64,000 bases of DNA from contig NC_015672.1 in assembly GCF_000218625.1 (NCBI RefSeq), forward strand, positions 1,647,451 to 1,711,450, given 5' to 3'. Shown in pieces: positions 32,995 to 63,630 of the stretch. Made by a program: the position numbers and the translations under genes. The DNA is from Flexistipes sinusarabici DSM 4947 (GTDB lineage Bacteria > Chrysiogenota > Deferribacteres > Deferribacterales > Flexistipitaceae). The notes under the pieces were generated by a model. That model ran no database searches, had not been told where the DNA came from, and saw only the letters and a program-made list of their open reading frames with translations. The first letter of the stretch is position 1. Every line of letters starts with the position of its first letter.

Positions 32995-33098
<104 letters not shown>

Positions 33099-47337: not shown

Positions 47338-47427
47338 GTCAAAATAAGTTACAGTTGTCCAAATTGTGTCAAATTGCGTAACATAGTGTCAAATTGAGTT
47401 ACAAAGAGTCAAATTAAGTAACAGGTA
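47338..47427. repeat. Four to five tandem 20-bp iterons GTCAAATTnnGTTACAnnnn
   Basis: Units start at 47338, 47368, 47388 and 47408, plus a partial unit at 47357. Confidence 0.6.
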
Positions 47428-47510: not shown

Positions 47511-48425
47511 TCATCTTTCTTCCATTTTTTCCAGACTGTCCTGAAGATATTTTTTTAGTGTTTGCTTATAATAATCGGGATTTTTTATTTTAATAAACGG
47601 CGCCCAACGCAGTATTTGCAACAGAAAATCCATTTCGTTATAAACTTCAAAAGTTACTTCGATACTGCTTTCGCCTTCACCTGTTATTTTTTGGTTCGTC
47701 AAACAGGATTTCCTTTTAAAATAATCAGCTACTGAATTATCAATTTCCATAGTAATTTTATCTTTGTCATGCTCATTAAACCAAATATTATTAGCATCTT
47801 TTATTATTTCGTCTATATCATCCCTATGACTAAACACATTACCTGTGGTTTTTATTTCTGAGATTTGATCCACAACAAATTTCTTCAGGCAATCTTCATG
47901 ATCACCCAGTAAGTACCAAAAGCCGTCAGATAAGATTATTCTATATGGTTTTACCGTATAATTACGGCTATATCTTTCATAAAAGAAAGTGATTTCGTTT
48001 TGTTCCTTTATTGCAATTTCTAAATCATTTAATACTGAGGATATGTTTTCAAAACCAATCATATTTTCTTTAACAAAATCGTATGAGAAAGTGATACCGT
48101 TTAGGTGAAATATTTTACTTTTTAATTTATCCAGGTATTTCGCGGAATCATTGTTAACATCCCTTTTCAAAAAATCAAACAAAGCACCTACGTAAGACAA
48201 CTCAGTTTGTGATAAAAAAGTTCCTTCAAAAGAATAACTATCTATCAAAGAATAGCTGTTGTCTTTTTCATTATGTACTACTCCAGGAATAATGGACAAT
48301 TCGAGTAAATATCTTTGAGCCGTTCTGATGCTTACTCCAAGTTCTTCAGAAACTTTTTTTGAATCAATCTTCTTGTTTTCATTTAAAAGTTTTATCAAAC
48401 CCAGTGCTGTATATAGTTTATTCAT
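47511..48425 (-). CDS. wHTH-WYL domain transcriptional regulator (BrxR/CapW-like)
   Basis: N-terminal HTH_11 (VSIRTAQRYLLEL). Central WYL motif (FWYLLGDHED). Length 304 aa. Confidence 0.7.
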   Translation of the reverse strand: MNKLYTALGLIKLLNENKKIDSKKVSEELGVSIRTAQRYLLELSIIPGVVHNEKDNSYSLIDSYSFEGTFLSQTELSYVGALFDFLKRDVNNDSAKYLDKLKSKIFHLNGITFSYDFVKENMIGFENISSVLNDLEIAIKEQNEITFFYERYSRNYTVKPYRIILSDGFWYLLGDHEDCLKKFVVDQISEIKTTGNVFSHRDDIDEIIKDANNIWFNEHDKDKITMEIDNSVADYFKRKSCLTNQKITGEGESSIEVTFEVYNEMDFLLQILRWAPFIKIKNPDYYKQTLKKYLQDSLEKMEER

Positions 48426-48442: not shown

Positions 48443-48790
48443 TTATTCACTCAGCCCTACAATAACAGTAATTTCACTTTCATTGCCTATTTTAACTGCT
48501 TTAAGATATTTGTTAAAGGAAATCTCATTATCTTCCAAAAAATCGACAAACTCATTAATTTTGTTGAACCCATCATTTGATAGAATTGAATAAAGAATTA
48601 TTGCATTACCATTTTTTCTTTTTCTTAAATTTGTTATTTGATTAAACTTTGAGATATCATTGAAAAAAAAGAAACTAAATTTCCTAAAACCCGAAAGATG
48701 TTTTTCAATATCTTCCGGGCTTATAGAAACGTAACAATCACAAAAACCATTATTACATACATAATCTTTAATACGCTCAACCATGCACAC
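48443..48790 (-). CDS. Hypothetical protein, 115 aa; 17 bp upstream of the WYL regulator
   Basis: ORF apparently co-transcribed with the regulator. Confidence 0.4.
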   Translation of the reverse strand: MCMVERIKDYVCNNGFCDCYVSISPEDIEKHLSGFRKFSFFFFNDISKFNQITNLRKRKNGNAIILYSILSNDGFNKINEFVDFLEDNEISFNKYLKAVKIGNESEITVIVGLSE

Positions 48791-48819: not shown

Positions 48820-48834
48820 CGTCGAAATCTGACG
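48820..48834. promoter_or_regulatory. CGTC-N7-GACG palindrome (cgtcgaaatctgacg) in the divergent promoter region
   Basis: Seen in sequence. Lies between the 48443(-) and 48878(+) genes. Confidence 0.45.
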
Positions 48835-48877
48835 TATATTTCTTTTAAATTAAAGATGATTTATTTAGGAGGTTTTT

Positions 48878-49510
48878 ATGAAATCAGTATCTTATGCTAT
48901 CAACAACATTCTGGACGCTTGTAATAAAGAAGACGGTCTATGGATTGGAAATACCCGAAAAGGCATCGAAGTAAGCGAAAAGAAAGAAATCGAAAATTTG
49001 TTTGACCTTATAATTTCAGGTAACACAATACTGGACAACATTTTAATTCTCGAAATCGAGGAGCCTTGCTTTTCAAGAAAATTCATAGCTAACTATTGGT
49101 CTGACCTTAATTTGAAAAAATTTTTCCAAAAGAGAAACTCTCAAAAGACTTTACTTTTGTGCAATGGACAGAGCTTGCAGGATATTTATATCGGGTTAAA
49201 GGGAAGCTATGACAAGCAAGAATTGTATTTCAACGTGATAAGCAGCAGTAGCCAAAATTCAAAAACCACGAATAAATTTAAGTTCTTACCCTACCCTTAT
49301 ATTGAAAAGACCGGAGTCTGGATTAAAGCAAAAGACCTGATTAATTCAGAAGTAAATCCTGACAAAATAATCAAAAAAATTGGAAACAAAATACCTGAAA
49401 ATGTTATAAGCAAAAAATATGATTTGATAAAAGCAAATATTCAAAGTTTTATCAATGAGTTTTCAATCAAAAAGAATGCTCATATAAAAATCATTAACGT
49501 TAACAATTAA
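48878..49510 (+). CDS. Hypothetical protein, 210 aa (island)
   Basis: RBS aggagg upstream. Divergent from the 48443 gene. Confidence 0.45.
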   Translation: MKSVSYAINNILDACNKEDGLWIGNTRKGIEVSEKKEIENLFDLIISGNTILDNILILEIEEPCFSRKFIANYWSDLNLKKFFQKRNSQKTLLLCNGQSLQDIYIGLKGSYDKQELYFNVISSSSQNSKTTNKFKFLPYPYIEKTGVWIKAKDLINSEVNPDKIIKKIGNKIPENVISKKYDLIKANIQSFINEFSIKKNAHIKIINVNN

Positions 49511-49570
49511 ACACTGCAATTCCATTTTCTATTGAGCTTCTTGAAATCCATATAAAATTATTTCACAAAA

Positions 49571-50068
49571 CTATTCCACTTCAATAACATTTGTTTTCTC
49601 AATACTAAATACTTCTTTTAATTCAGCTAATGTGCGTAATTTCACATCATTAACTTTTAAATATTTCATATAATTCTTGAATCCAGAGTCAGTTTTAAAT
49701 TCTTTCAAAATTTCCAGGTAGAATTCAGGAAAATATTCTGATTCATAGAAAAATTCACACTCTTTCAAGTGCCCTTTATTATCCGTATGAAAAATGAATA
49801 TCCCGATATTTGAGAAAAACAAGAAATAATCATCTGCTGAAAAAATACCTTCCTTTTCTGACATTGTATTGAGGTAAAAAGTGCCGCAACATTTTCCATA
49901 AAATTCATCATTTTTATCAGATATGCATTCACATATTCCGGTAATAAAAGAATTTCTAAGTTCGTTATTTAATTTTTCCTGAGAAATTTCATTGCAGGTT
50001 TTGGATAACAAGAAAATTATAAAATCATACATCTGCTTAAATTTAACTATTTCTACAGACTTCTTCAC
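49571..50068 (-). CDS. Hypothetical protein, 165 aa, Cys-rich (CECISDKNDEFYGKCCG)
   Basis: ORF with RBS. Confidence 0.45.
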   Translation of the reverse strand: MKKSVEIVKFKQMYDFIIFLLSKTCNEISQEKLNNELRNSFITGICECISDKNDEFYGKCCGTFYLNTMSEKEGIFSADDYFLFFSNIGIFIFHTDNKGHLKECEFFYESEYFPEFYLEILKEFKTDSGFKNYMKYLKVNDVKLRTLAELKEVFSIEKTNVIEVE

Positions 50069-50105
50069 AAAAACCTCCTAATAAATGATTAAGCTTGAAT
50101 TTAAA

Positions 50106-50603
50106 TTAGTCATCATCCCACTCACTTACCCCAGCTTTCTTGCCGGTTTCTCCAGTATCCCATAGCAAAACCATGTTTTCTACTCCGCCTTTCTTCACAT
50201 CTGTCCCTATTTGAATATTACCCAGTTTCTTTGATTTGATATAAAGAGTAATTCCAAGCATACTATCATAATCCAGTATACCATCGTATTCCTCAACTTT
50301 GACAGCTTCATTTGTCTCCACATTTTCATAGACAAACCTACTGCCGCTGATAAGATTTACCTGCTCTTCGTCGTCAATAGACTGAAATCCGGTGTTCCCC
50401 GCAGCTACCATATCCAGTACTTCTCCAGTAAGATTTACTAAAAACACATCATCTACCATATTTTTTTCACTATTAGTCCTTACAAGCCAAAGCAAAGGTT
50501 TTCTTTCCTCTACCTTATCAGACAACGGAAAAACAAATCTACCCTTTTGTTCGTGTGGCGGAGTCCAGTTAAACTGGTCTTTTACTCGTTTTTGTTTACT
50601 CAT
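50106..50603 (-). CDS. Hypothetical protein, 165 aa, acidic C-terminus (WDDD)
   Basis: ORF with RBS ggagga. CGTC-N7-GACG palindrome in its upstream region. Confidence 0.45.
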   Translation of the reverse strand: MSKQKRVKDQFNWTPPHEQKGRFVFPLSDKVEERKPLLWLVRTNSEKNMVDDVFLVNLTGEVLDMVAAGNTGFQSIDDEEQVNLISGSRFVYENVETNEAVKVEEYDGILDYDSMLGITLYIKSKKLGNIQIGTDVKKGGVENMVLLWDTGETGKKAGVSEWDDD

Positions 50604-50702
50604 ACTTCCTCCTTTTAAGTTTTTTGGGTTTATTGATAAATAATGAAATCGTTAGGATTTTGAAAAAGAATTATCTTTTCAAATGTAAAATAGTTCTTTA
50701 AT

Positions 50703-50719
50703 ACGTCAGAATCCGACGT
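50703..50719. promoter_or_regulatory. ACGTC-N7-GACGT palindrome (acgtcagaatccgacgt) upstream of the 50106..50603 gene
   Basis: Seen in sequence. Confidence 0.45.
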
Positions 50720-50972
50720 TAGAAATTAAAATTACAGAAAAAAACAAGGTGTCTTTATGCAGATTCATGCAAAAATCGTCAAGCTCTTCTTCTGTCATAT
50801 CAAGGATTTCTCTCTTTTTAGCTATATCTTGGGCATAAGAATAAAAAAATTCTCTGTATTTTTTATCTTTTGTAATATCAGAAATGAGACTCAGTTTTTG
50901 TTCCAGATCAAGCTGTGAAACAAGCTCTTTTATCTGGTCATACTTAATTTCAATTTCTTTTAGTTTGGGCAT
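50706..50972 (-). CDS. Hypothetical small protein, 88 aa
   Basis: ORF, probably a helical protein. Confidence 0.35.
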   Translation of the reverse strand: MPKLKEIEIKYDQIKELVSQLDLEQKLSLISDITKDKKYREFFYSYAQDIAKKREILDMTEEELDDFCMNLHKDTLFFSVILISNVGF

Positions 50973-51174
50973 AATTTACTCTCGAATAACAACATGTATT
51001 TATTATAATAAATTTAAATTTACAAAACCATTATTTCAATATTAATAATACACTCACACTTTATTTACTACATTACAAAAAAAACAAATTATTTATTTTT
51101 TCGTATTTGGATAATTATTATTGAAATACGAAAAATAGTTGCATTGTTCATTCTTATGAATTAAAATAAGTATT

Positions 51175-52578
51175 ATGAATACACCAGACTTTCTGAACAG
51201 AGAAAAAGAGCTGAATTTTCTACATTCACAATTTGCAAGAAAAGAAGCATCGTTTATCGTTATTTACGGAAGAAGAAGGGTTGGCAAAACATCCCTTATC
51301 AAGGAGTTTATAAAGGATAAGTCTTCACTGTTTTTTATGGCGGACAAACAGTCAGAAAAAGGCATTCTTGACAGATTTGCAAAAACAGCATCAACCTTTT
51401 TAGAAGATGAGTTTTTAGAAAAATTGACATTTAATTCCTGGGAAGATTTTTTTGGTTATATAACTCAGAAACTCGATGAATCAAAAAAATATGTTCTTGT
51501 AATAGATGAGTTTCAATACCTGCCGGATATAAACCATGCTTTTCCTTCTATATTACAAAGGATATGGGATGAAAAGCTAAAAGACAAAAATATAATGCTG
51601 ATATTGTGCGGATCTTTGATAAACATGATGTATTCTACTACATTAAGCTACCAGAGTCCGCTTTATGGCAGAAGGACCGGGCAGATAAAGTTAGATCCAA
51701 TCTCATTTGATTATTGTCATAATTTTTTCCCCAACATTGATGAGCGAAAACTTATTGAATATTATTCAGTAACAGGAGGAATTCCGAAATACATGGAGAT
51801 GTTTGATGCAACCAATGATATTCTTTATGATATAAAAACAAATGTTCTCTCAAAAAACAGTTATCTTTACAACGAACCACGGTTTATCTTAAACGAAGAG
51901 GTTACTGAAACAGCAACATATTTTTCTATACTTAAAGCGATAGCAGCAGGGGAACATAAAATTGGAAAAATTGCATCCATAGTGGGCGTTAAAACGAATG
52001 TGCTGGCAAAATATTTTAATGTACTGGCAGATTTGCAGATAATAGAAAGACAGGTGCCTGTAACAGAAGAAAATCCTGAAAAAAGCAAAAAGGGCTTATA
52101 TTTTATCAAAGATAATTTTTTCAGATTCTGGTTCCGCTACATATTCCCCTACCAAAGTTTTTTAGAAATTGAAAGAGATGACGTAGTGTTAAAAGAGATA
52201 CAAAAAAGTTTCAATATTTTTGTTAGTTTTGTTTATGAAAACTTGTGTCTGCAAAAGATTCCCGATCTTACCCAGAATGGTGTTATTAATTTCAAAATTG
52301 AAAAATGGGGTAGATGGTGGAGCAAGGATGAGGAAATTGATATAGTAGCTACAAGCAAAAAAGATAAAAATATCTTGTTTGGTGAATGCAAATGGAGCGA
52401 CACACCCATAGGAGTGAGCGTTTATGCTGATTTAAAGGCTAAAGCAAAAAATGTAAAATGGCACACAGATGAAAGGAACGAGTATTATATTCTTTTTTCA
52501 AAGTCAGGCTTTACAGAAGATTTAATGGATATAAATGAAAAAACAAGCAGTCTCATCTTAATCGACAGCATCGTATAA
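51175..52578 (+). CDS. AAA+ ATPase (archaeal-ATPase/DUF234 family) with C-terminal PD-(D/E)XK-like region
   Basis: Walker A GRRRVGKTS. Walker B VLVIDEFQYL. C-terminal EEIDIVA...GECKW. Confidence 0.7.
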   Translation: MNTPDFLNREKELNFLHSQFARKEASFIVIYGRRRVGKTSLIKEFIKDKSSLFFMADKQSEKGILDRFAKTASTFLEDEFLEKLTFNSWEDFFGYITQKLDESKKYVLVIDEFQYLPDINHAFPSILQRIWDEKLKDKNIMLILCGSLINMMYSTTLSYQSPLYGRRTGQIKLDPISFDYCHNFFPNIDERKLIEYYSVTGGIPKYMEMFDATNDILYDIKTNVLSKNSYLYNEPRFILNEEVTETATYFSILKAIAAGEHKIGKIASIVGVKTNVLAKYFNVLADLQIIERQVPVTEENPEKSKKGLYFIKDNFFRFWFRYIFPYQSFLEIERDDVVLKEIQKSFNIFVSFVYENLCLQKIPDLTQNGVINFKIEKWGRWWSKDEEIDIVATSKKDKNILFGECKWSDTPIGVSVYADLKAKAKNVKWHTDERNEYYILFSKSGFTEDLMDINEKTSSLILIDSIV

Positions 52579-52677
52579 AAATATTTAAGGCTTAAAAATT
52601 AACGGGTTCTCAAGCTCAGCATTTTGGTCTGTAATTACAAAAATTCAAAGATAAGATAATTATATCTTAAACTGCAA

Positions 52678-52692
52678 CGTCAGGTATTGACG
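52678..52692. promoter_or_regulatory. CGTC-N7-GACG palindrome (cgtcaggtattgacg) upstream of the AddB-like gene
   Basis: Exact reverse complement of 59053-59067. Same motif class as 48820 and 50703. Confidence 0.5.
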
Positions 52693-52779
52693 CATCTTTG
52701 TGCCAATAAAAAACCAAGAAAGATTTTCGTTTAGATGTAATAAATGCTATAATTTGCAATTATTTATTGTGGGTGAATC

Positions 52780-55700
52780 ATGAAATCAGTCTTAAAGTCT
52801 TTGGAAAACATCTGTTCTAAAAATATTACAAAGCGAAAAATACTTGTGATGCCGAGTTACACAGAAGGCTTAAGCCTATTGAATGCTCTTGCTCTTAACA
52901 ATGTAAATATCGCCAATATAAAAGTAGAAACACCCTTAAGTCTCGCAAAAGATATTTCAAAAATGAGCCTATATAAATCCGGCAAAGATTTTTTAGACAG
53001 ATCAAGTGCAAGATATGTTGTTTTAAACTTATTTAACCAGCTTCTGACAGAGAATAAGCTTAAATATTTTCAACAATTATCACCATCTGTAGGGGTAATC
53101 AGTGAATTGGAAAACGTTTTATATGAACTCAGAATTACAGATTACACCCATATAAATTTTCCTGTAAATTCTTTTATAGATCCTGAAAAAGAACACGACA
53201 TTAAAACATTACTGCAAAAATACGAAAACTATCTTGAAAATAATAACCGCATCGATGAGCCAGGTTTGTATAAACATAGCATACAAATGTTGCAAAAAGA
53301 CAGCTTTCATAAAGACAAGCTTTTTCTGATACCGGCTAATCTGGAACTGCCTTTACTCTCCAAAAGTTTTATCTCAATGCTTACGAAAAATAATCATGAA
53401 ATTATAAAATTCGCACAATTAAAAAGCTTAAATGTCCCTGAAAATTATTACTCAAATAATCCATATTCGGATACAATAGATAACTGCTTCAGCTGGCTTT
53501 ATGAGCTTAATAATTCCGAAAATTTGGACAAAAACCCCGGTTTTGAAATATACAGAGCATACGGCGAGTCAAATGAAGCCAAAAAAGTGATAAGAGTACT
53601 CAAGAGAGATGCAATAAATCTTGATGATGCTGTTATTTATACGACCTCTTCCCAACTGTATAATCAAATTCTCTATGATTTATCATGCACATACAATATT
53701 CCCATGACTTTTGAGGAAGGGATAAGTGTATCAAATACTTCTCCCGGTAAGCTTTTATTATCAGTTCTGGAATGGATTTCAGAGAAATACAGTGTTCCAA
53801 AATTTTGTACAATGTCCACAGGGGGATTTTTCAAATTTAGCAACAATGAAATCTCACCATTAAAAATAAGTAAAATACTTAAAGAAAGCAAGATTGCCTG
53901 GGGCAAAAAACGGTATAAAAAAATATTGGAGAATGAGTTAACGAACACTACAAATGATTATAAAATAGAAATTTTAAATGTCGTTCTTTCAGAGCTTAAT
54001 AGTATTTTTGACGAAATACCCGATACAGAAAACACTTCATCTATATCTTTATCTGAGTTTTCGAAAGGCTTAGTAAACATACTAAACAAACATACCCGAA
54101 TAAGAAATGAGACAGACGCATCAGCTTTAACCACACTTACCGAAAATCTTTCAAACTTGGCAGATTATTCAACACAGGAATTTCAGGAAAAAGAAATAAT
54201 AAAGATGCTTAAAAAACTTGTATATGGCATTAATATTAATGCCTCCTCAGCCAAGCCCGGTCATATTCATGTCACTAATTTTCAAAACGGAATCTGGCAT
54301 AACAGAAAGCACAATTTCATTTTAGGTCTTGATGCTGAAAAATTCCCCGGTAAAGGTGGTGAAAGCCCGTTTTTGCTTGATATGGAAAAGGAGCGTATTG
54401 GAAAAATTCAGACAAGTATTCAAAGGAAAAGCAGAAATATTTATAAAATGACAGAACTTCTTGCTAACACAAATGGCAAAATATATGCAATGTTCACCAA
54501 TTACGATACTGAGGCGGCGAGGCTCCAATCCCCATCCTCTTTACTACTGCAAATTTACAGACTACAGGAAAAGCTTGATAAAAGCACACCGGATAAAGAG
54601 CACATCGAAAGCTATCTGCCTTTTAAAAATAGTGAGAAAGAGATTCTTGATGAGACAGAATTATGGTTGCACAAAGCTTTTTATTCCGGTGGTATCAAAA
54701 ACAATGAAGAAATATTCCCTTCTGTTTACCCTGTATTTAATAAAGGTCTTTTTGCATTAAGTGAAAGGCAAAGCAGCATAAATGAGTATAACGGCTGTGA
54801 GTTAAACATAAGTGATGAAATTGTTAATAAATTACTTTATGAAAAGACCTTCTCAAACTCAAAACTTGAAACAATGGGCAGTTGTCCCCTCCGATTTTTC
54901 TTTCAACATATACTCTATCTAAAACCTCTTGAGGAATATGAGTATGACCCGTGGAGGTGGCTGGATCCTTTGGAAAGAGGAACGTTATTACACAGGATTT
55001 TTGAGCTGTTTTATAAAGAATTAATAAATAAAAAAGAAATGCCGGAATTAGATAAGCATATGGGTTTGTTAGAAAATATAGCAAAAACGGAAACTGAAGA
55101 ATTAAAAGATTTATTACAGCCTCCAAGTGAAACTGTATATGAAAGTGAATTTAATGAAATTTTAGATTCCTGCCGTATATTTCTCCAGAAAGAATCCACC
55201 AAATTATCCAAAGAAGGTCATCCTCTATATTTAGAGCTTTATTTCGGTAATTACCCCGAAAGTGAAGGTTCCAGTTTCCCGACGGCTGTGTTTACATTGC
55301 CATCAGGCAGAAAAATACAGCTTAGCGGTAGAATCGACAGGATTGATCAGTTAAATAACGGAAGCTATAAAATAATTGACTATAAGACAGGAAGTACCAG
55401 AGATTACAGCAGTAATGAATATTTCAAAAAGGGTAAACAGCTTCAACACGCTTTATATTCTTTGGCTTTCGAAAAGCTCATGGGGAATAAATACAAAATT
55501 TCACAATCCGGATACTATTTTCCAACAACCAAAGGCGAAGGCTCAGAATACATGTATCCACCAAGTGACGGAAAACATAAAAGAGAAGAAGTATTGGAAA
55601 TCGTTGACATTCTTCTTGATAATATTGAGAACCGTTTCTTCCCGCCCGTTAAGTATGATAACAAAAATGATTCATGTAGATTCTGCGACTATAAAGAGAT

Positions 55701-55797
55701 ATGCGATAGAGAAAAAAATGATTCATTAACAAAGATGCTGGAATATGAGGAAAACAAATACCTTCAAAATTACAGGAGGATTGAAAGCTATGAGTGA
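52780..55797 (+). CDS. addB: AddB/RexB-like helicase-nuclease subunit (no Walker A; RecB nuclease plus Fe-S cysteines)
   Basis: C-terminal PD-(D/E)XK (GRIDRIDQL...YKIIDYKTGS). Cysteines GSCPLRF...CRFCDYKEIC. Confidence 0.65.
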   Translation: MKSVLKSLENICSKNITKRKILVMPSYTEGLSLLNALALNNVNIANIKVETPLSLAKDISKMSLYKSGKDFLDRSSARYVVLNLFNQLLTENKLKYFQQLSPSVGVISELENVLYELRITDYTHINFPVNSFIDPEKEHDIKTLLQKYENYLENNNRIDEPGLYKHSIQMLQKDSFHKDKLFLIPANLELPLLSKSFISMLTKNNHEIIKFAQLKSLNVPENYYSNNPYSDTIDNCFSWLYELNNSENLDKNPGFEIYRAYGESNEAKKVIRVLKRDAINLDDAVIYTTSSQLYNQILYDLSCTYNIPMTFEEGISVSNTSPGKLLLSVLEWISEKYSVPKFCTMSTGGFFKFSNNEISPLKISKILKESKIAWGKKRYKKILENELTNTTNDYKIEILNVVLSELNSIFDEIPDTENTSSISLSEFSKGLVNILNKHTRIRNETDASALTTLTENLSNLADYSTQEFQEKEIIKMLKKLVYGININASSAKPGHIHVTNFQNGIWHNRKHNFILGLDAEKFPGKGGESPFLLDMEKERIGKIQTSIQRKSRNIYKMTELLANTNGKIYAMFTNYDTEAARLQSPSSLLLQIYRLQEKLDKSTPDKEHIESYLPFKNSEKEILDETELWLHKAFYSGGIKNNEEIFPSVYPVFNKGLFALSERQSSINEYNGCELNISDEIVNKLLYEKTFSNSKLETMGSCPLRFFFQHILYLKPLEEYEYDPWRWLDPLERGTLLHRIFELFYKELINKKEMPELDKHMGLLENIAKTETEELKDLLQPPSETVYESEFNEILDSCRIFLQKESTKLSKEGHPLYLELYFGNYPESEGSSFPTAVFTLPSGRKIQLSGRIDRIDQLNNGSYKIIDYKTGSTRDYSSNEYFKKGKQLQHALYSLAFEKLMGNKYKISQSGYYFPTTKGEGSEYMYPPSDGKHKREEVLEIVDILLDNIENRFFPPVKYDNKNDSCRFCDYKEICDREKNDSLTKMLEYEENKYLQNYRRIESYE

Positions 55798-58700
55798 TCA
55801 AGCTCTAAAGGACAGTCACGCAAGAAAGAAAATAATAAATGATCTTGATACAAATTTTTTAGTGGAAGCCGGTGCAGGTTCCGGTAAGACTTCAAGCCTT
55901 GTTAAAAGGATTACGTCTTTAATCACTAACGGAAAAAATAAAATCTCAGAAATAGCCGCTATTACTTTTACCAAGAAGGCTGCTTCTGAGCTTATGGAAA
56001 GACTTTTAAATGAATTGGAAGACCGACATAATTCAGAAACAGACCCTACCATAAAAGAGAACCTATATGATGCGATAAACAACTTTGACCAGTGTTTTAC
56101 CGGTACAATACACTCATTTTGCTCCGGCATATTGAGGGAAAGACCTGTGGAGGCTGGAGTTGACCCGGATTTTGATGAAATAGATGATTCAGACGAGTTT
56201 GGTTTGATTACTGAAGTCTGGAACGAGTTTATCAAGTCCACAAGAGCTGAGAATCCTGATATGCTAAAATTGACGGAGAAAATTGGGGTATCGCCTGAAG
56301 AGCTTCAGGATAGTTTTGTTATGCTGAATAAATATCCGGAAATCAAAATACACGCTGAAAAATCTGAAAAACCGGATTTAAAGCCTGCGGTTAAAAAAGT
56401 ATTAGAAATCTGTAAAGAGGCTTCAAAATACATTCCTGATGAAGAACCGGATAAAGGGTACGATGCTTTTCAGAAAAATGTGCAATCAACGCTCAGACTT
56501 TTAGAATATAGAAATCTCTATGAAGATAAGTATGCAATAGAAATATTAACAAAATTTGAGAAAACACCCAAAATAACACAAAACAGATGGCTTGATAAAA
56601 AAACTGCAAAAAATTTCCAGGATGTAATACTGCCGGATTTGGTTGAAAACACTGTTTATCCGGTATTAAGAAAACACAGGGAACATATTTATACTTATTT
56701 TATAGATTTTTTTCAAGATGCACTAACATATTATGAAAACAAGAGGAATCAGGAATCAATTCTGAATTATAACGATCTTCTGACACTTACCTCAAAGATG
56801 CTAAGAAATAATTCAAAAGTAAGAGAATATTTTCAAAATAAATACAAGACAACTCTGGTGGATGAGTTCCAGGATACCGATCCCATACAAGCTGAAATTA
56901 TCATGTATTTGACCGGAGAAGATTTAAAGGAAACCGATTGGAGTAAACTGAGACCCAAAAAAGGCTCACTTTTTGTAGTTGGTGATCCAAAACAGTCAAT
57001 ATACAGATTCAGAAGAGCTGATATAGATATTTATAACTTTGTAAAAGAAATTATTTCACAAACAGGCGGTGAAATACTCGAATTAACTTCCAATTTCAGA
57101 TCATTAAACAGCATAGCTGATTATCTCAATCCTGTTTTTGAAGAAAGGTTTCCTGAGAGTGGTGACAGGTATCAGGCACCTATGGCAAAGATCCGTGCAA
57201 TCCGTGAAAACAATTATGAACACGGTGTAAAAAAGATATTAGTCCAATGTGACTCCAGAAAAAAAGAAGATGTTGTTGAAATTGACGCTGAAAATATAGC
57301 AAGATATATAAAATATGCTGTAGACGGTGGAATAAAATTAGCCCGAAATGAGGAAGAAAAATCTAAAGGACTTAATGAGAAGCCTGTATATTCAGATTTT
57401 TTGATAATAACCAAACATAAAGATTTGCTGGAACAATATGCAAACACACTGGAAAAATACGGAATTCCTTCAACTGTAACCGGTGATGATTTTTTCAGCC
57501 AGTCAGAAGAGATAAACCATATTTATAAGCTCCTTAAATTTCTCAGTAAACCGGATGATGAGATACTCTTAGTATCAGTACTAAGAGGTATGTTTTTCGG
57601 TTTGAGTGATAATGACTTGTACCAGTTTAAAGCATCAAATGGGTATCTCAATATCTTTAGCAGTATACCGGAATCGCTGGATGAAAACATCAAAAATCTT
57701 TTTAATAACTGTTTTTCAACACTTCGCAAATATAAAAAGATTATCAATGAGTTGCCACCATCGTCAGCTTTGGAAACAATCTTTCAGGACTTAGGGATTT
57801 TACCCTATACATCACTGAAGAACTTATCAAAAAGCCGGGCTGCAAACATTTATTTTTTAATAGAACAAGTCAAACAGAAGGAAACTACCGAATTTTACTC
57901 ATTTGGAAATGTAGTCAACCATATAGGCAGATTGTTAGAGTCAAAATTTGAACAGAGAAACAGCCTCGAAGTTGAAAGCAATTGCGTGAGAATAATGAAT
58001 TTGCATAAAGCAAAAGGTTTGGAAGCACCTGTTGTTTTTCTTGCCCACCCTCACAAAAATACTAAACACGACCCAACTCAGCATATTAACAGACGAGAGG
58101 GCGAACCTATAGGTTATTTTGCACTAACTAAAAAGAAAGGGATACACCATAAAAAAATTTTTGCTCAACCTAAAAATTGGGAAGAATTCCAGGAAGAGGA
58201 ACAAAAATTTTTAGATGCTGAATTTGAAAGACTTGTCTATGTGGCAGCAACGAGGGCTAAAAATCTCCTTATAATAAGCTGTAAAGAAAAAGGCAATGGG
58301 AGTCAGAACCCCTGGCTGAGCCTGCTGGGTAATTTAAAAGATGACGATGTAATAGATGTACCTGATGTCAGTATAGAGCATGATTCAGGTGTAAATGAAT
58401 TATCCGTAAAAGATATAAATGATAAAAAAGCTGAGATCAGTCATTGGAGGCATTCTGTGTCAGAAGAGAATTATTCAAACATGACCCCCACAGAAGTAAA
58501 AGATTTGGAAAAAATATTTGCCGGTGAAAGGCTCGAAGGCGGCGGTCAGGACTGGGGTACCGCTGTGCATAATTTTTTAGAGTTTGCTGTAATGACCAAA
58601 GATACCGGATATGAGGATTTGGATACTTATATAAAATTTACTTTTGAAGAGCTGGATATAAGCTCTGACAGAACAGAGGAAGCTAAAAAAATAATAGAAG

Positions 58701-59038
58701 ATTTTAAACAAACAGACTTATTTAACCGAATAAAAAATGCCGAACAAGTGGAGACGGAAGCCCCCATTTCTATGAAAATTAATCCGGAATCCGAAATCAT
58801 GAATTTGTTTAATACTAAAACGAGTAACAAGCCTATAATCCTGGCAGGCGTAATTGACCTTGTGTTTAAAGAAAAGGACGGCTGGGTAATTATAGATTAC
58901 AAAACCGACAGAGTTAATTCCGAAGAAGAATATGAAAAACTCAGGCAGGCCTATTTAAATCAAGTGGAAATTTATGCAAAAGCATGGGAAGAGATAACCG
59001 GTGAAAAAGTAAAAGAGAAAAATATATACTTTGTATGA
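55790..59038 (+). CDS. addA: AddA/RexA-like UvrD-family helicase with C-terminal RecB nuclease
   Basis: Walker A AGAGSGKTS. Motif II LVDEFQDTD. Motif III GDPKQSIYRFRRAD. Motif VI VYVAATRAK. Nuclease GVIDLVF...IIDYKTD. Overlaps the addB stop by 8 nt. Confidence 0.8.
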   Translation: MSDQALKDSHARKKIINDLDTNFLVEAGAGSGKTSSLVKRITSLITNGKNKISEIAAITFTKKAASELMERLLNELEDRHNSETDPTIKENLYDAINNFDQCFTGTIHSFCSGILRERPVEAGVDPDFDEIDDSDEFGLITEVWNEFIKSTRAENPDMLKLTEKIGVSPEELQDSFVMLNKYPEIKIHAEKSEKPDLKPAVKKVLEICKEASKYIPDEEPDKGYDAFQKNVQSTLRLLEYRNLYEDKYAIEILTKFEKTPKITQNRWLDKKTAKNFQDVILPDLVENTVYPVLRKHREHIYTYFIDFFQDALTYYENKRNQESILNYNDLLTLTSKMLRNNSKVREYFQNKYKTTLVDEFQDTDPIQAEIIMYLTGEDLKETDWSKLRPKKGSLFVVGDPKQSIYRFRRADIDIYNFVKEIISQTGGEILELTSNFRSLNSIADYLNPVFEERFPESGDRYQAPMAKIRAIRENNYEHGVKKILVQCDSRKKEDVVEIDAENIARYIKYAVDGGIKLARNEEEKSKGLNEKPVYSDFLIITKHKDLLEQYANTLEKYGIPSTVTGDDFFSQSEEINHIYKLLKFLSKPDDEILLVSVLRGMFFGLSDNDLYQFKASNGYLNIFSSIPESLDENIKNLFNNCFSTLRKYKKIINELPPSSALETIFQDLGILPYTSLKNLSKSRAANIYFLIEQVKQKETTEFYSFGNVVNHIGRLLESKFEQRNSLEVESNCVRIMNLHKAKGLEAPVVFLAHPHKNTKHDPTQHINRREGEPIGYFALTKKKGIHHKKIFAQPKNWEEFQEEEQKFLDAEFERLVYVAATRAKNLLIISCKEKGNGSQNPWLSLLGNLKDDDVIDVPDVSIEHDSGVNELSVKDINDKKAEISHWRHSVSEENYSNMTPTEVKDLEKIFAGERLEGGGQDWGTAVHNFLEFAVMTKDTGYEDLDTYIKFTFEELDISSDRTEEAKKIIEDFKQTDLFNRIKNAEQVETEAPISMKINPESEIMNLFNTKTSNKPIILAGVIDLVFKEKDGWVIIDYKTDRVNSEEEYEKLRQAYLNQVEIYAKAWEEITGEKVKEKNIYFV

Positions 59039-59052
59039 GTTTTAAGAATTAA

Positions 59053-59067
59053 CGTCAATACCTGACG
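59053..59067. promoter_or_regulatory. CGTC-N7-GACG palindrome (cgtcaatacctgacg) after the AddA-like gene and upstream of vapBC
   Basis: Reverse complement of 52678-52692. Confidence 0.5.
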
Positions 59068-59163
59068 CAATCCTCTTTAATAATAATTTTCACTTGAAGA
59101 TTGCATAATAAGCTTAAAAAGTATATATTGAAGTATATACTTTTCAAAAAGGAGTTATTAATA

Positions 59164-59391
59164 ATGGATACTGCAAAAATATTTGAAAACGGAAAAAGTC
59201 AGGCTGTCAGGTTACCCAAAAAATACAGGTTTGACAGCGATGATGTGTTTATAAAAAAAATTGATGACATCGTTGTATTAATTCCTAAAGATAAAGTCTG
59301 GCAAATTTTTAGTTCATCTTTGGACAAATTTTCGGAAGATGTAGATTTTCAAAAAGACAATTCTATACCACAGGAAAGAGAAGAAATATAA
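59164..59391 (+). CDS. vapB: VapB-type antitoxin (AbrB/SpoVT-like)
   Basis: MDTAKIFENGKSQAVRLPKKYRF. Stop overlaps the PIN toxin start. Confidence 0.65.
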   Translation: MDTAKIFENGKSQAVRLPKKYRFDSDDVFIKKIDDIVVLIPKDKVWQIFSSSLDKFSEDVDFQKDNSIPQEREEI

Positions 59392-59793
59392 ATGTCTTAC
59401 CTTTTTGATACAAACATATGTATTTACATCATAAAAAATAAGTACAAACAAATTGCAAAAAAAATGCAGGAAGCTGGATTAGAAAAAATTTGTATCTCTG
59501 CTATTACCGTTGCAGAGTTAGAATACGGTATATCAAAAAGCTCCAAAAAGGACGAAAACAGGATTGCGTTGCTGGAATTCCTTATTCCGTTTACAGTATT
59601 AAATTTTGATCAAAATGATGCCAGAAAATACGGTCAAATCAGGTACAATTTGCAAAAAGCAGGCACACCTATTGGTAACATGGATTTGCTTATTGGATCC
59701 CAGGCTTTGGCAAGAGATATGACTCTGATAACAAATAACGAAAAAGAATTCAGCCGGATACAAGGGTTAAAAATAGAAAACTGGATTAAATAG
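59392..59793 (+). CDS. vapC: VapC PIN-domain toxin
   Basis: PIN motifs LFDTNICIY, ...TNNEKEF. Confidence 0.8.
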   Translation: MSYLFDTNICIYIIKNKYKQIAKKMQEAGLEKICISAITVAELEYGISKSSKKDENRIALLEFLIPFTVLNFDQNDARKYGQIRYNLQKAGTPIGNMDLLIGSQALARDMTLITNNEKEFSRIQGLKIENWIK

Positions 59794-59814
59794 AAATTTT
59801 ATACGGAGAATCTC

Positions 59815-60261
59815 ATGTCTGACATATGTTTTTTAAGACCAACAGCAGCAAAGCGTATTGAAAACTGGCTTAACAGCAACAATTACTCATTACATAACGG
59901 TTATTTTACGCTGGAGTACAATTTTTCTCCGATTGTAGATGATGGAATTATTCTGAGTTTTATTGATAACAAAACGGGCGATATTCACAAATTAGTTGTA
60001 CAGGATGATATTGAAGGTATTATTGAACCTGATGAAGAATGTTCAGTATCACAAATAAGTATTGATTACATCCCCCTATCCCTTGAGCTTACTCCGGAAA
60101 CTTTGGAAAAATTTTCAGAAATAGAATCAAGAAAATTTGAGGCGGAAGTTGAAGAGTTAGTAGAACCTGTAGGTTGCGGAATAAAATTTGAAATCTATTC
60201 AGACAGCTATGCAATTTTCGCCTGCAAAAAGGAATTGCAACGCACTCAAATCGGAGAATAA
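59815..60261 (+). CDS. Hypothetical protein, 148 aa
   Basis: ORF only. Confidence 0.4.
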   Translation: MSDICFLRPTAAKRIENWLNSNNYSLHNGYFTLEYNFSPIVDDGIILSFIDNKTGDIHKLVVQDDIEGIIEPDEECSVSQISIDYIPLSLELTPETLEKFSEIESRKFEAEVEELVEPVGCGIKFEIYSDSYAIFACKKELQRTQIGE

Positions 60262-61885: not shown

Positions 61886-62121
61886 GTCGTAATCCCTTCA
61901 AAACATTTGCGCAATATCTCATCGCAAATGTTTCTGTTCAGAGCTTGCTGGAAATCAGGTCATTAATTCCAATAGTATATCTTAACTTAACAAATGGATT
62001 AGAAGACTTTTGTCGTAATCCCTTCAAATCAGGTCATTAATTCCAATTCGGGTGCTGCGTATTATGCAACTGCTCCCACGGAAGGGGTCGTAATCCCTTC
62101 TAATCAGGTCAATTCCGAAAA
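61886..62121 (+). CRISPR. CRISPR mini-array A: interrupted first repeat, one canonical repeat, degenerate terminal repeat
   Basis: 36-nt repeat GTCGTAATCCCTTC(T/A)A(A/G)TCAGGTCAT(GG/TA/GA)ATTCCAAT. Spacers of 38-39 nt. Terminal repeat degenerate (gtcgtaatcccttctaatcaggtcaattccgaaaat). Confidence 0.8.
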
Positions 62122-62318
62122 TAGGTTTTAGGTTTTAGGTTTTGGGTTTTAGGGAAAGCAGGGTTGCAAATCTTTCGAGCAGGGAATTGGCTTCGCCAAC
62201 GTATCTCGTCTCACGCAAAAAACAACTAAAGCTGAAAACAAATAATCTTTGAAATCTACGTGAACATTAAAAACGTTGAACATTGAACGTGGAACGCTGG
62301 CACGACAGTGCCAGATCT

Positions 62319-62774: not shown

Positions 62775-62971
62775 TAGGTTTTAGGTTTTAGGTTTTGGGT
62801 TTTAGGGAAAGCAGGGTTGCAAATCTTTCGAGCAGGGAATTGGCTTCGCCAACGTATCTCGTCTCACGCAAAAAACAACTAAAGCTGAAAACAAATAATC
62901 TTTGAAATCTACGTGAACATTAAAAACGTTGAACATTGAACGTGGAACGCTGGCACGACAGTGCCAGATCT

Positions 62972-63433: not shown

Positions 63434-63630
63434 TAGGTTTTAGGTTTTAGGTTTTGGGTTTTAGGGAAAGCAGGGTTGCAAATCTTTCGAGCAGGGAATT
63501 GGCTTCGCCAACGTATCTCGTCTCACGCAAAAAACAACTAAAGCTGAAAACAAATAATCTTTGAAATCTACGTGAACATTAAAAACGTTGAACATTGAAC
63601 GTGGAACGCTGGCACGACAGTGCCAGATCT

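What the first reader, a model, noticed from the sequence alone, without database searches (positions are those of the whole stretch)
48820..59067. Shared CGTC-N7-GACG palindromic operator at four promoter regions of the island, including both flanks of the AddAB-like operon
cgtcgaaatctgacg (48820), acgtcagaatccgacgt (50703), cgtcaggtattgacg (52678) and cgtcaatacctgacg (59053) all fit (A)CGTC-N7-GACG(T). The last two are exact reverse complements. They bracket the 6.4-kb addB-addA module like terminal inverted repeats. One interpretation is a common regulator binding site that places the helicase-nuclease pair in the same regulon as the unknown genes, which implies a defence role. The other is terminal IRs of a mobile cassette.
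Basis: seen in the sequence. Interest (0 to 1): 0.7.

Follow-up and report, generated by a model that had tools for sequence, protein, structure and literature searches.

The report
DriD/DdaA-type boxes of a WYL regulator
The four CGTC-N7-GACG palindromes are real, conserved binding sites of the kind used by the DNA-damage-sensing WYL regulators DriD and DdaA, and they most likely tie an AddAB-like helicase-nuclease and several unknown genes of a variable island in Flexistipes sinusarabici to the WYL regulator encoded beside them; this is a new example of a known regulatory system, not a mobile-element end.

Summary
CGTC-N7-GACG occurs exactly four times in 64 kb (about 0.15 expected). All four sites are intergenic and lie within 10.2 kb.

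The sites match the published box of the WYL activators DriD (CGNC-N7-GNCG; didA site ATACGTCCGTTTCTGGCGCA) and DdaA (CGWCA-N5-TGWCG). The island's regulator is an HTH-WYL-WCX protein (Flexsi_1581, 47511-48425). Its closest solved relative by sequence profile and by fold is DriD, and it keeps both base-reading arginines (RTAQR against DriD RTAER).

In related Flexistipes-like lineages with 71-92% regulator identity, the boxes upstream of the regulator operon, the p165 operon and AddB persist. Their arms are invariant while spacers, flanks and neighbouring genes change. Across 26 homologue loci, including other orders, 19 carry the box within 300 bp upstream of the regulator gene, a 32-fold enrichment.

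The terminal-inverted-repeat reading fails. Site 4 lies in a 45-bp indel that a lineage with the same AddBA-VapBC lacks. Deletion breakpoints do not coincide with the boxes, and no recombinase lies inside.

Two questions stay open: whether the regulator activates (favoured) or represses, and whether the regulon serves defence or repair.

Verdict: a new member of a known kind, of moderate interest.

The parts
48820..48834 (.). Box S1, CGTCGAAATCTGACG. It lies between the divergent p115-WYL operon (35 bp to the p115 ATG) and p210 (43 bp to its ATG). It is the autoregulatory site.
   Evidence: Orthologous boxes occur in L013 (9426), L045 (9592) and L017 (9592, where the spacer differs), each followed by the conserved ctcagccgtgtga.
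50704..50718 (.). Box S2, (A)CGTCAGAATCCGACG(T), 100 bp upstream of the p165b-p165a operon. A -10-like TATTTT lies 11 nt from the box end on the minus strand (inferred).
   Evidence: Orthologues occur in L013 (7511), L017 (6468), L045 (7709) and L021 (9298, CGACGGAAACTGACG).
52678..52692 (.). Box S3, CGTCAGGTATTGACG, 87 bp upstream of AddB. It lies 55 nt upstream of the conserved extended -10 TGCTATAAT (52745-52753). A perfect TATAAT lies 13 nt away in the opposite direction.
   Evidence: Across five lineages the arms are invariant and the spacers differ (AGGTATT, ACGTATG, AAGTATT, AAGCATT, AGGCTTT). In L021 the arrangement toward AddB is box + 10 nt + TATAAT.
59053..59067 (.). Box S4, CGTCAATACCTGACG, the reverse complement of S3. 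It is 14 bp after the AddA stop and 98 bp before VapB, inside a 45-bp insertion specific to this strain.
47511..48425 (-). wHTH-WYL-WCX regulator (Flexsi_1581), DriD/DdaA-like. It is the proposed protein that binds the boxes.
   Evidence: Pfam WYL 1.3e-10, WCX and HTH_11. It is identical to the NCBI protein Flexsi_1581. The family profile hits DriD chains best, at about E 4e-8. Foldseek ranks DriD first at 2.8e-13. R34-T35-A36-Q37-R38 aligns to DriD R37-T38-A39-E40-R41.
48443..48790 (-). p115, unknown function. It is the first gene of the S1-driven operon with the regulator; the likely start is the ATG at 48784.
   Evidence: Conserved in L017 and L045.
48878..49510 (+). p210, unknown function, divergent from S1. 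TAAATT lies 11 nt from the box end.
   Evidence: In L017 the gene is deleted but its promoter and box remain.
49571..50603 (-). The p165b (50106-50603) and p165a (49571-50068) operon downstream of S2. Both proteins have unknown function. p165b is modelled as a beta-sandwich.
   Evidence: p165a homologues sit beside WYL homologues and a box in Deferribacter abyssi and D. thermophilus; a p165b homologue precedes WYL in L021.
50706..52578 (.). Inserted cassette made of the small ORF p88 (minus strand) and an ATPase_2/DUF234 ATPase (plus strand, PADLOC candidate PDC-S27). It separates S2 from S3 and is not itself preceded by a box.
   Evidence: The cassette is absent in L013, where S2 and S3 lie 240 bp apart.
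52780..59038 (+). AddB-like (52780-55797) and AddA-like (55745-59038) helicase-nuclease operon downstream of S3.
   Evidence: NCBIfam addA_Gpos 6.5e-107 and addB_Gpos 9.3e-24, both below the equivalog cut-offs. PADLOC shows a Cas4-like nuclease and UvrD/GajB-like hits. A box precedes AddB in the window, L013, L045 and L021.
59166..60261 (+). VapB (59166-59391), VapC (59392-59793) and p148 (59815-60261), downstream of S4. VapBC has its own sigma70-like promoter and an operator-like inverted repeat.

Best explanation
The four palindromes are binding sites (boxes) for a homodimer of the island's own wHTH-WYL-WCX regulator, Flexsi_1581. This protein is a Deferribacterota relative of DriD from Caulobacter and DdaA from Acinetobacter.

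Each wHTH reads one CGTC/GACG half-site, with two arginines of the recognition helix (R34, R38) contacting the guanines. The 7-bp AT-rich spacer is not read.

S1 autoregulates the p115-WYL operon and serves divergent p210. S2 serves p165b-p165a. S3 serves the AddB-AddA-like helicase-nuclease operon. S4 is a recent strain-specific copy of S3 in front of vapBC-p148.

The favoured mode (about 0.55-0.6, inferred) follows DriD and DdaA. Single-stranded DNA produced by DNA damage or phage replication binds the WYL domain. The dimer then binds the box, which lies where a -35 element would be, and recruits RNA polymerase. The local regulon is thereby switched on.

What is shown here: the motif, its conservation, its linkage to this regulator family, and the structural and sequence kinship to DriD. 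What is inferred: actual binding, the ligand, and the sign of regulation.
For: (1) Statistics: 4 sites against 0.15 expected, only at spacing 7, all intergenic and clustered.
(2) Identity with published boxes: DriD XCGXC(X)7GXCGX, with T typical at position 3 and an AT-rich gap, and the didA site ATACGTCCGTTTCTGGCGCA (PMC10853764). DdaA has CGWCA-N5-TGWCG, with recA site CGTCATGTTATGTCG (PMC12392091 and PMC13010146). Window sites 1 and 2 read ATACGTCAGAWTYCGACG.
(3) Regulator kinship: the family profile hits DriD chains at about E 4e-8, PafBC at 3.9e-5, and no BrxR or CapW at E<=1. Foldseek on the model ranks DriD at 2.8e-13, above PafBC, CapW (3.5e-9) and BrxR (4.8e-8).
(4) Recognition helix: SIRTAQR aligns with DriD GRRTAER. 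Arg37 and Arg41 of DriD read the two conserved guanines. R34, T35, A36, Q37 and R38 are invariant in 25 homologues.
(5) Orthologous loci at 71-92% regulator identity keep boxes before the WYL operon, p165b and AddB, with invariant arms and variable spacers and flanks.
(6) Family-wide linkage: the strict box CGWC-N7-GWCG lies within 300 bp upstream of the regulator gene in 19 of 26 homologue loci, at 2.76 per kb against 0.085 per kb elsewhere. The other candidate DNA-binding genes, p182 and p226, are absent from loci that keep the boxes.
(7) Geometry: a -10-like hexamer peaks 10-11 nt after the box end (13 of 61 hits over 30 offsets, mostly independent loci), and no -35 consensus is present. 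This fits the report that the DriD box covers the -35 position in promoters that lack a -35 element (PMC13004042).
(8) Most DriD ssDNA-contact residues have conservative equivalents: Y149, R154, Y171, K181, F183.
Against: No binding or expression data exist for this organism.

Box-to--10 distances are not uniform. They are 5-6 nt in the Seleniivibrio/Denitrovibrio group, 10-11 nt in many loci, and 13-14 nt for S1 toward WYL and for S3 in the reverse direction. That suits a repressor as well as an activator.

AddBA also has a conserved extended -10 promoter 55 nt downstream of S3, so it may be expressed without the box.

The DriD residues that touch RNA polymerase (G18, A20) are not conserved; the equivalents here are E16 and N17. 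Two DriD ssDNA-contact arginines are replaced (R178 by Y156, R207 by V184).

The -10 assignments are made in 30%-GC DNA, where such hexamers are common. The generic promoter scan was at chance level.

The rest of the genome could not be scanned, so 'island-specific' is shown only for this 64-kb window and for about 20-kb flanks in relatives.
Confidence: 0.85

Rival explanations
1. The sites and the protein are the same, but the regulator acts as a CapW/BrxR-style repressor. It would sit on the boxes, overlapping the core promoters, in the absence of signal, and leave when ssDNA binds the WYL domain. The island genes would then be de-repressed.
For: The regulator lies in a variable, low-GC island with toxin-antitoxin modules and a PADLOC candidate ATPase, next to a CRISPR array. 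WYL regulators characterised so far in such settings, BrxR and CapW, are repressors (PMC11662680). Box positions overlap the -35/spacer region at variable distances from -10-like hexamers, which occlusion tolerates better than activation. AddBA has an independent conserved extended -10 promoter. The DriD residues that contact RNA polymerase are not conserved.
Against: Sequence profile and fold place the protein nearer to the activators DriD and PafBC than to CapW or BrxR. It has a canonical FWYL motif rather than the RWHVR motif of the repressors. Pfam gives WYL/WCX, not WHD_BrxR/BrxR_CTD. The box is the DriD/DdaA box, whereas the CapW site is unrelated. The promoters lack -35 elements, and the modal spacing is 10-11 nt.
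Confidence: 0.3
2. S3 and S4 are terminal inverted repeats, or recombination or inversion sites, of a mobile AddAB cassette.
For: S3 and S4 are exact 15-bp reverse complements that bracket the 6.4-kb AddBA operon. Gene content of the island varies between lineages, and some synteny breaks lie near boxes: at the S1 edge, 25 bp beyond S2, and 23 bp before S3. In L017 a 234+255-aa cassette sits between two boxes.
Against: S4 lies in a 45-bp indel and is absent in L013, which has the same AddBA-VapBC arrangement. L021 also has AddBA with only the upstream box. The lineage without AddBA (L017) lacks 52763-59796, including VapBC, yet keeps S3 and the promoter, so the breakpoints are not S3 and S4. 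The same motif occurs at sites that flank nothing mobile and upstream of regulator genes in other orders. There is no transposase or recombinase between the sites, no target duplication, and identity does not extend beyond the 15 bp. No inverted AddBA arrangement was seen in any relative.
Confidence: 0.03
3. The palindromes act as RNA hairpins (weak intrinsic terminators or attenuators) rather than as protein-binding DNA.
For: The terminator-like scan flagged S1, S3 and S4 as short stems followed by T-containing tails. S4 lies just after the AddA stop codon.
Against: The stems are only 5-7 pairs including G-T, without a proper U-run. Across more than 40 distinct sites the arms keep the same letters (CGWC/GWCG) instead of covarying. 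The sites lie upstream of genes, not at operon ends, and they are symmetric on both strands.
Confidence: 0.02
4. The boxes are bound by a different transcription factor encoded elsewhere, such as a global damage regulator, and the adjacent WYL protein is coincidental.
For: No binding data exist. The recognition-helix pattern R-T-x-x-R is common in HTH_11/DeoR-type domains.
Against: The box co-occurs with this wHTH family in 19 of 26 loci from several orders, directly upstream of the gene. That includes short Geobacterales proteins that share only the wHTH. The other island genes with possible HTHs (p182, p226) are not conserved with the boxes.
Confidence: 0.05

Closest known systems
DriD and its box (Caulobacter crescentus; CGAC-N7-GTCG, general form XCGXC(X)7GXCGX)
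   Same: The box has the same 15-bp architecture and the same conserved positions (G2, C4, G12, C14; T3 common), with an AT-rich unread spacer and even the ATACGTC flank of the didA site. The regulator has the same wHTH-helical linker-WYL-WCX layout, and DriD is its best PDB match by profile and by fold. Both base-reading arginines are kept. A box sits in the regulator's own promoter, and the box occupies the -35 position. The DriD regulon also contains nucleases and repair genes (recJ, bapE, recA).
   Different: Sequence identity is only about 16-17%, and the phylum is different (Deferribacterota). Glu40 is replaced by Gln37. The RNA-polymerase-contact residues G18 and A20 are not kept, and two ssDNA-contact arginines are replaced. 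All sites seen so far cluster in one variable island rather than at dispersed housekeeping repair genes. The targets are an AddAB-like pair, unknown small proteins and a toxin-antitoxin pair.
DdaA and its motif CGWCA-N5-TGWCG (Acinetobacter/Moraxellaceae)
   Same: The consensus is identical to the one that emerges from the Deferribacterota sites (CGWCA-N5-TGWCG). DdaA is a WYL activator of the damage response that also drives anti-phage systems (CRISPR-Cas, RM, Zorya). This is the same mix of repair-like and defence-like targets as here, and this island also sits next to a CRISPR array.
   Different: The DdaA regulon is genome-wide and replaces SOS, which could not be tested here. No sequence comparison with DdaA itself was possible, because no DdaA sequence was available to the tools. 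The phylum is different.
BrxR/CapW defence-island WYL repressors
   Same: They share the domain family and the setting, a WYL regulator at the edge of a variable island of nucleic-acid enzymes. They also use a palindromic operator, and ssDNA is the likely ligand.
   Different: Their operator sequence is different (CapW: TAAAAACTGATCGTATAATAATGCTACGCT). They carry an RWHVR motif and WHD_BrxR/BrxR_CTD domains, which are absent here. They rank lower by fold and are absent from the profile hits. They act as repressors.
PafBC (Actinobacteria)
   Same: It is a WYL activator of DNA-damage genes that works at promoters lacking a -35 element. It is the second-best structural and profile match.
   Different: It is a heterodimer or fusion, binds a non-palindromic motif only together with RNA polymerase, and has a different DNA sequence.

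Membership tests
DriD/DdaA-type WYL regulator box | 15-bp palindrome CGNC-N7-GNCG with G2, C4, G12 and C14 conserved (DdaA form CGWCA-N5-TGWCG) | tested here: met
   All four window sites are CGTC-N7-GACG. S3 and S4 fit CGWCA-N5-TGWCG exactly, and S1 and S2 fit with one mismatch each. The definitions come from PMC10853764 and PMC12392091.
DriD/DdaA-type WYL regulator box | AT-rich spacer that varies while the arms are kept | tested here: met
   The four spacers are 4-5 of 7 A/T. In S3 orthologues from five lineages the 8 arm positions are invariant, while 4 of 7 spacer positions change.
DriD/DdaA-type WYL regulator box | Cognate wHTH-WYL-WCX homodimeric regulator with two base-reading arginines in the recognition helix | tested here: met
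   Pfam finds WYL, WCX and HTH_11. R34 and R38 align with DriD R37 and R41 and are invariant in the family. The dimeric state was not tested.
DriD/DdaA-type WYL regulator box | A box in the regulator's own promoter (autoregulation) | tested here: met
   S1 lies 35 bp upstream of the p115-WYL operon. 19 of 26 homologue loci have a box within 300 bp upstream, and the others have it before the first gene of the operon.
DriD/DdaA-type WYL regulator box | The box covers the -35 position at a fixed distance from the -10, in promoters without a -35 element | tested here: inconclusive
   The modal distance is 10-11 nt from box end to a -10-like hexamer, and no -35 consensus is present. Spacings of 5-6 and 13-14 nt also occur, and no transcription start sites are known (PMC13004042).
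DriD/DdaA-type WYL regulator box | The regulator is closest to DriD/DdaA among WYL proteins | tested here: met
   The profile against the PDB hits DriD at about 4e-8, ahead of PafBC and with no CapW or BrxR. Foldseek ranks DriD first at 2.8e-13. DdaA itself has no PDB entry among the hits, so it was not compared.
DriD/DdaA-type WYL regulator box | Direct, arm-dependent binding, ssDNA-stimulated, with activation of the target promoters | not testable with these tools
   This needs EMSA or fluorescence polarisation, reporter assays or RNA-seq.
BrxR/CapW repressor operators | WHD_BrxR/BrxR_CTD architecture with an RWHVR motif, and the family's own palindromic operator | tested here: not met
   Pfam gives WYL/WCX/HTH_11 only. 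The sequence has GFWYLL. The CapW operator is unrelated. BrxR and CapW rank below DriD and PafBC by fold.
Terminal inverted repeats of a transposable or mobile cassette | Both repeats travel with the cassette, and presence/absence breakpoints fall at the repeats | tested here: not met
   S4 is absent in L013, which has the same AddBA-VapBC. The L017 deletion runs 52763-59796 and retains S3.
Terminal inverted repeats of a transposable or mobile cassette | A transposase or recombinase inside the element and a target-site duplication | tested here: not met
   Only AddB-like and AddA-like genes lie between S3 and S4. The flanks show no duplication.
Canonical AddAB (housekeeping double-strand-break resection enzyme) | Scores above the NCBIfam equivalog cut-offs for AddA and AddB | tested here: not met
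   addA_Gpos scores 358.8 bits against a cut-off of 707.65. addB_Gpos scores 83.1 against 903.7. The pair is therefore called AddAB-like only.

The most novel reading that the evidence does not exclude
The DriD/DdaA box and its wHTH form an ancient, portable 'ssDNA-alarm' promoter module. In Deferribacterota this module is attached to interchangeable cassettes of unknown genes and helicase-nucleases: AddAB-like, UvrD+PD-(D/E)XK, DUF4011-type helicase-REase, and an RNase_T exonuclease. The Flexistipes island would then be an inducible anti-phage or anti-plasmid island in which each acquired cassette brings, or lands next to, its own box. The boxes would mark module junctions where cassettes are exchanged. 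The AddAB-like enzyme would be an inducible defence effector rather than the housekeeping resection enzyme.
Probability: 0.25. Interest if true: 0.6.

Novelty: new member of a known kind. Interest (0 to 1): 0.4.

Why it matters
The finding extends the DriD/DdaA recognition code (CGWCA-N5-TGWCG read by an RTAxR helix) from Alpha- and Gammaproteobacteria to Deferribacterota, and through wHTH-only relatives to Geobacterales. This suggests that one of the few known SOS-independent damage and infection alarm circuits is far more widespread and older than shown so far.

It gives a concrete, testable regulon for an uncultivated-like corner of bacterial diversity. It links an AddAB-like helicase-nuclease and several 'dark' gene families (p115, p210, p165a, p165b, and the box-linked cassettes in relatives) to an ssDNA-type signal, which is a useful handle for assigning them function.

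It also shows that the apparent 'terminal inverted repeats' around AddAB are regulatory sites, which prevents a wrong mobile-element annotation.

Tried and rejected
- The terminal-inverted-repeat or mobile-cassette idea was rejected by comparing lineages.
- The terminator or hairpin idea was rejected because the stems are weak and the arm letters stay constant instead of covarying.
- The generic sigma70 promoter scan of 48.4-59.4 kb found no more sites than shuffles (47 against 46.3), so it gave no help in placing promoters.
- A relaxed motif scan of the whole window (CGWCANNNNNTGWCG with up to 2 mismatches) found no convincing extra site, none before recJ, and counts at or below the shuffle expectation.
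- PADLOC, Pfam and NCBIfam gave nothing for p115, p210, p165a, p165b, p148, p182 or p226. They also gave nothing for the box-linked cassette genes of relatives.
- p165b homologues in Psychromonas and elsewhere carry no DriD-type box and share no neighbours with this locus.
- phmmer with the regulator alone, or with its N-terminal 89 residues, did not reach DriD's HTH. Only the family profile did, and that HTH alignment is weak (scores of -1.7 and -1.9 bits for the HTH stretch).
- An exact-protein look-up of VapC to see whether S4 exists in the 92%-identical lineage L045 returned only the same strain.

Full report
An exact search for CGTCNNNNNNNGACG finds four sites, at 48820, 50704, 52678 and 59053, and no others in the 64-kb window. 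Dinucleotide-preserving shuffles give 0.15 matches on average and never reach four. The window contains 76 CGTC and 86 GACG. Only the 7-nt spacing is enriched, and the inverse arrangement GACG-Nx-CGTC never occurs. When oriented alike, the sites fall into two pairs. S1 and S2 read ataCGTCAGATTTCGACG and ataCGTCAGAATCCGACG. S3 and S4 both read CGTCAGGTATTGACG, with S4 on the opposite strand. All four sites are intergenic.

**2. Context.** The window comes from Flexistipes sinusarabici DSM 4947 (Deferribacterota). The regulator gene is Flexsi_1581. The sites lie in a low-GC stretch (0.29-0.35 against 0.38-0.41) between recJ and an IS element followed by a CRISPR array. The gene order is as follows.
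- p182(-), p226(-), WYL regulator(-), p115(-)
- S1
- p210(+), p165a(-), p165b(-)
- S2
- p88(-), ATPase_2/DUF234 ATPase(+)
- S3
- AddB-like(+), AddA-like(+)
- S4
- VapB, VapC, p148(+)

The regulator has HTH_11, WYL and WCX domains. The AddA-like and AddB-like proteins hit the AddA and AddB models well below the equivalog cut-offs. The small proteins have no family assignment.

**3. Related lineages keep the boxes while everything around them changes.** I recovered Flexistipes-like contigs whose regulator is 88-92% identical (L013-L016, L017/L018/L024, L045) or 71% identical (L021/L022/L027).
- S1 orthologues precede the p115/p113-WYL operon in L013, L045 and L017. In L017 the spacer differs (CGTCATATTTTGACG). 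In each case the conserved ctcagccgtgtga follows.
- S2 orthologues precede p165b in L013, L017, L045 and L021, where the site reads CGACGGAAACTGACG.
- S3 orthologues precede AddB in L013, L045 and L021. In L017 the box also persists although AddBA is gone.
- In the five-way S3 alignment the eight arm positions are invariant, while the spacer reads AGGTATT, ACGTATG, AAGTATT, AAGCATT or AGGCTTT.
- Extra boxes precede other unknown genes. These are L045 10965 and L021 10943 (just downstream of the regulator), and L017 756 and 7936.

Invariant arms with free spacers are the signature of a dimeric DNA-binding protein. They are not the signature of an RNA hairpin, whose arms would covary.

**4. The mobile-cassette reading fails.**
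- blastn synteny shows that L013 lacks the p88-ATPase cassette (window 50744-52654), so S2 and S3 lie 240 bp apart there.
- L017 lacks window 52763-59796, which holds AddB, AddA, S4 and VapBC. It retains S3 and the promoter downstream of it. The deletion therefore does not run from S3 to S4.
- S4 lies inside a 45-bp insertion placed immediately after the AddA stop codon. That insertion is absent from L013, which has the same AddBA-VapBC arrangement.
- L021 has AddBA with only the upstream box.
- No recombinase gene lies between the sites. Identity does not extend beyond the 15 bp. No relative shows AddBA inverted.

S4 shares its exact spacer with this strain's own S3, not with the S3 of other lineages. 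It therefore looks like a recent local copy. Its role is unresolved: it could add an inducible promoter for vapBC-p148, or it could pair with S3.

**5. What the motif is.** The literature on WYL regulators gives an exact match.
- DriD of Caulobacter binds XC1G2X3C4(X)7G12X13C14G15X. G2, C4, G12 and C14 are conserved, T is usual at position 3, and the gap is AT-rich.
- The first mapped DriD site, in the didA promoter, is ATACGTCCGTTTCTGGCGCA.
- Arg37 reads G2, Arg41 reads the guanine opposite C4, and Glu40 touches C1.
- 68 of 69 alphaproteobacterial DriD homologues have the box in their own promoter (PMC10853764).
- DdaA of Acinetobacter/Moraxellaceae binds CGWCA-N5-TGWCG, with recA site CGTCATGTTATGTCG. 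It activates damage-response genes and also CRISPR-Cas, RM and Zorya systems (PMC12392091, PMC13010146).
- The CapW operator is unrelated (PMC11662680).

The window sites fit CGNC-N7-GNCG exactly. Sites 1 and 2 even share the ATACGTC flank.

**6. The regulator is DriD-like.** A profile of 25 homologues hits DriD chains best in the PDB (about E 4e-8 to 1e-7), then PafBC (3.9e-5), and no BrxR or CapW at E<=1. An AlphaFold2 model (pLDDT 76.8; the linker is poorly resolved) finds DriD complexes first by Foldseek (E 2.8e-13). PafBC, CapW (3.5e-9) and BrxR (4.8e-8) follow.

In the admittedly weak HTH alignment, DriD G-R36-R37-T38-A39-E40-R41 matches S32-I33-R34-T35-A36-Q37-R38. These residues are invariant in the family.

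Most DriD ssDNA-contact residues have conservative counterparts: Y168/Y149, R176/R154, Y192/Y171, R204/K181 and W206/F183. Two do not: R178/Y156 and R207/V184. The protein has a canonical FWYL motif rather than the RWHVR motif of the repressor clade.

**7. Box and wHTH travel together across taxa.** I examined homologue loci from Deferribacter, Seleniivibrio, Denitrovibrio and other Deferribacterales. I also examined Geobacterales loci that encode short 141-154-aa proteins sharing only the wHTH (50-59% identity over about 70-75 residues). In these loci a CGWCA-N5-TGWCG box lies 30-250 bp upstream of the gene.

The strict pattern CGWC-N7-GWCG occurs within 300 bp upstream in 19 of 26 loci. Its density is 2.76 per kb there against 0.085 per kb in the remaining 306 kb, and many of those remaining sites are themselves regulon sites. 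The loci without a proximal box, including the window, have it before the first gene of the operon. The 54%-identical Flexistipes paralogue has a one-mismatch box (TGTCAGAATCTGTCG) 55 bp upstream. p182 and p226 are absent from loci that keep the boxes, which excludes them as the cognate factor.

**8. Geometry and mode of action.** In DriD promoters the box sits where the -35 element would be, at a fixed distance from the -10, and the promoters lack a -35 (PMC13004042).

I took 45 distinct boxes, read both directions, and recorded -10-like hexamers (A2, T6, at least 5 of 6 matches). Their positions peak 10-11 nt after the box end, with 13 of 61 hits over 30 offsets. Examples are L021 toward AddB (TATAAT at 10 nt), D. 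abyssi toward its UvrD-like gene (11 nt), L006 toward a DUF4011 helicase-REase-WYL operon (11 nt), and L045/L021 toward the gene after the regulator (10 nt).

In the window, weaker hexamers lie at 11 nt toward p210 (TAAATT), p165b (TATTTT), AddB (CAATAA) and VapB (AATAAT). No -35 consensus falls inside the boxes.

Several points count against a clean activator picture. Other spacings occur: 5-6 nt, and 13-14 nt including S1 toward WYL and a perfectly conserved TATAAT 13 nt from S3 in the reverse direction. AddBA has a conserved extended -10 (TGCTATAAT, 52745-52753) 55 nt downstream of S3. The DriD residues that contact polymerase are not conserved. I therefore favour activation only moderately, at about 0.55-0.6.

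**9. What the regulon does.** Regulators of this family in Deferribacterota sit next to different nucleic-acid enzymes, each preceded by a box or in an operon with the regulator.
- AddAB-like pairs: the window, L013, L021 and L045.
- UvrD-like plus PD-(D/E)XK nuclease: D. abyssi.
- A UvrD-like gene after a p165a homologue: D. thermophilus.
- An RNase_T exonuclease and a DUF499 ATPase: L005.
- A 1550-aa DUF4011/AAA_11/AAA_12/MTES_1575 helicase-nuclease: L006.

Several features give the island the look of a defence island: variable cargo, toxin-antitoxin pairs, a PADLOC candidate ATPase, transposases and the adjacent CRISPR array. The repair-type enzymes and the DriD/DdaA precedent fit a damage response. 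DdaA shows that the two roles are not exclusive. The data do not decide between them.

**10. Verdict.** Its 'common regulator' reading is right, and the regulator can be named. Its 'terminal repeat' reading is wrong. The system is a new, phylogenetically distant member of the DriD/DdaA class, not a new kind of system. Its main value is that it extends the class to new phyla and flags a set of unknown genes as ssDNA-alarm-controlled.

Noticed in passing
window 62012-63958 (continues to the window end): A CRISPR array with the 36-nt repeat GTCGTAATCCCTTCTAATCAGGTCATGGATTCCAAT at 73-77-bp spacing. It is interrupted three times by a 100%-identical 300-nt element (62087-62386, 62740-63039, 63399-63698). 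The element begins inside a repeat, carries a TAGGTTT x4.6 microsatellite, and ends with a repeat 3' half. It looks like a small element that targets the CRISPR repeat, or like a segmental triplication of repeat plus insert.
   Followed up: partly
window 47366-47423: A 20-bp tandem repeat, GTGTCAAATTGAGTAACAAA x2.9, in the gap between the regulator's stop codon and the start of p226. It may be an iteron-like or operator array for p226.
   Followed up: no
window 32392-32497 and 32802-32859, upstream of SRP RNA at 32993-33091: Short tandem arrays, GAGATAGG x13 (or a 24-mer x3) and the heptamer ATAACCC x8.3, lie just upstream of the small SRP RNA gene.
   Followed up: no
window 59100-59150: vapBC has its own promoter-like TTGCAT-17-TATATT, overlapped by the inverted repeat AAGTATATA-TTGA-AGTATATACTT. 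It is conserved in L013 and is probably the VapB autorepression operator, independent of S4.
   Followed up: partly
L008-L011, L030-L043 (Geobacterales metagenome and genome loci): Proteins of 141-154 aa share only the wHTH (50-59% identity over about 70-75 residues) with the WYL regulator. They nevertheless carry a CGWCA-N5-TGWCG box 45-245 bp upstream, often divergent from PAS-domain histidine kinase genes. This is a WYL-less branch that uses the same DNA code.
   Followed up: partly
L017 7877-7950 and 9592-9606: In this lineage p210 is deleted, but its box, its -10-like TAAATT, its RBS and its first codons (MKSVS) remain. A 234+255-aa cassette of unknown genes sits between this remnant box and the S1 orthologue, so the cassette is bracketed by two boxes.
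   Followed up: partly
L019/L028 (same 80-kb Flexistipes-like contig as L015): A 54%-identical WYL paralogue lies about 24 kb from the main locus. It precedes a Schlafen-like/UvrD-like helicase and is next to HNH, two GmrSD (DUF262-type) proteins, an S24-peptidase repressor and a PIN/PhD toxin-antitoxin pair. This is a second WYL-headed defence-like island, with a one-mismatch box (TGTCAGAATCTGTCG) 55 bp upstream.
   Followed up: partly
L047 (Psychromonas ingrahamii CP000510, 3.017-3.034 Mb): The nearest named homologue of p165b (Ping_2476, 43% identity) sits in a P4-like satellite island (AlpA, pRha, Toprim primase, AAA_25). That island also holds two BrxR-type WYL regulators and a 1138-aa Metallophos plus ADP-ribosylglycohydrolase protein. 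No DriD-type box is present.
   Followed up: partly
window 60337-61704: An IS-type transposase gene (455 aa, minus strand) separates the island from the CRISPR array and marks the right edge of the low-GC region.
   Followed up: no
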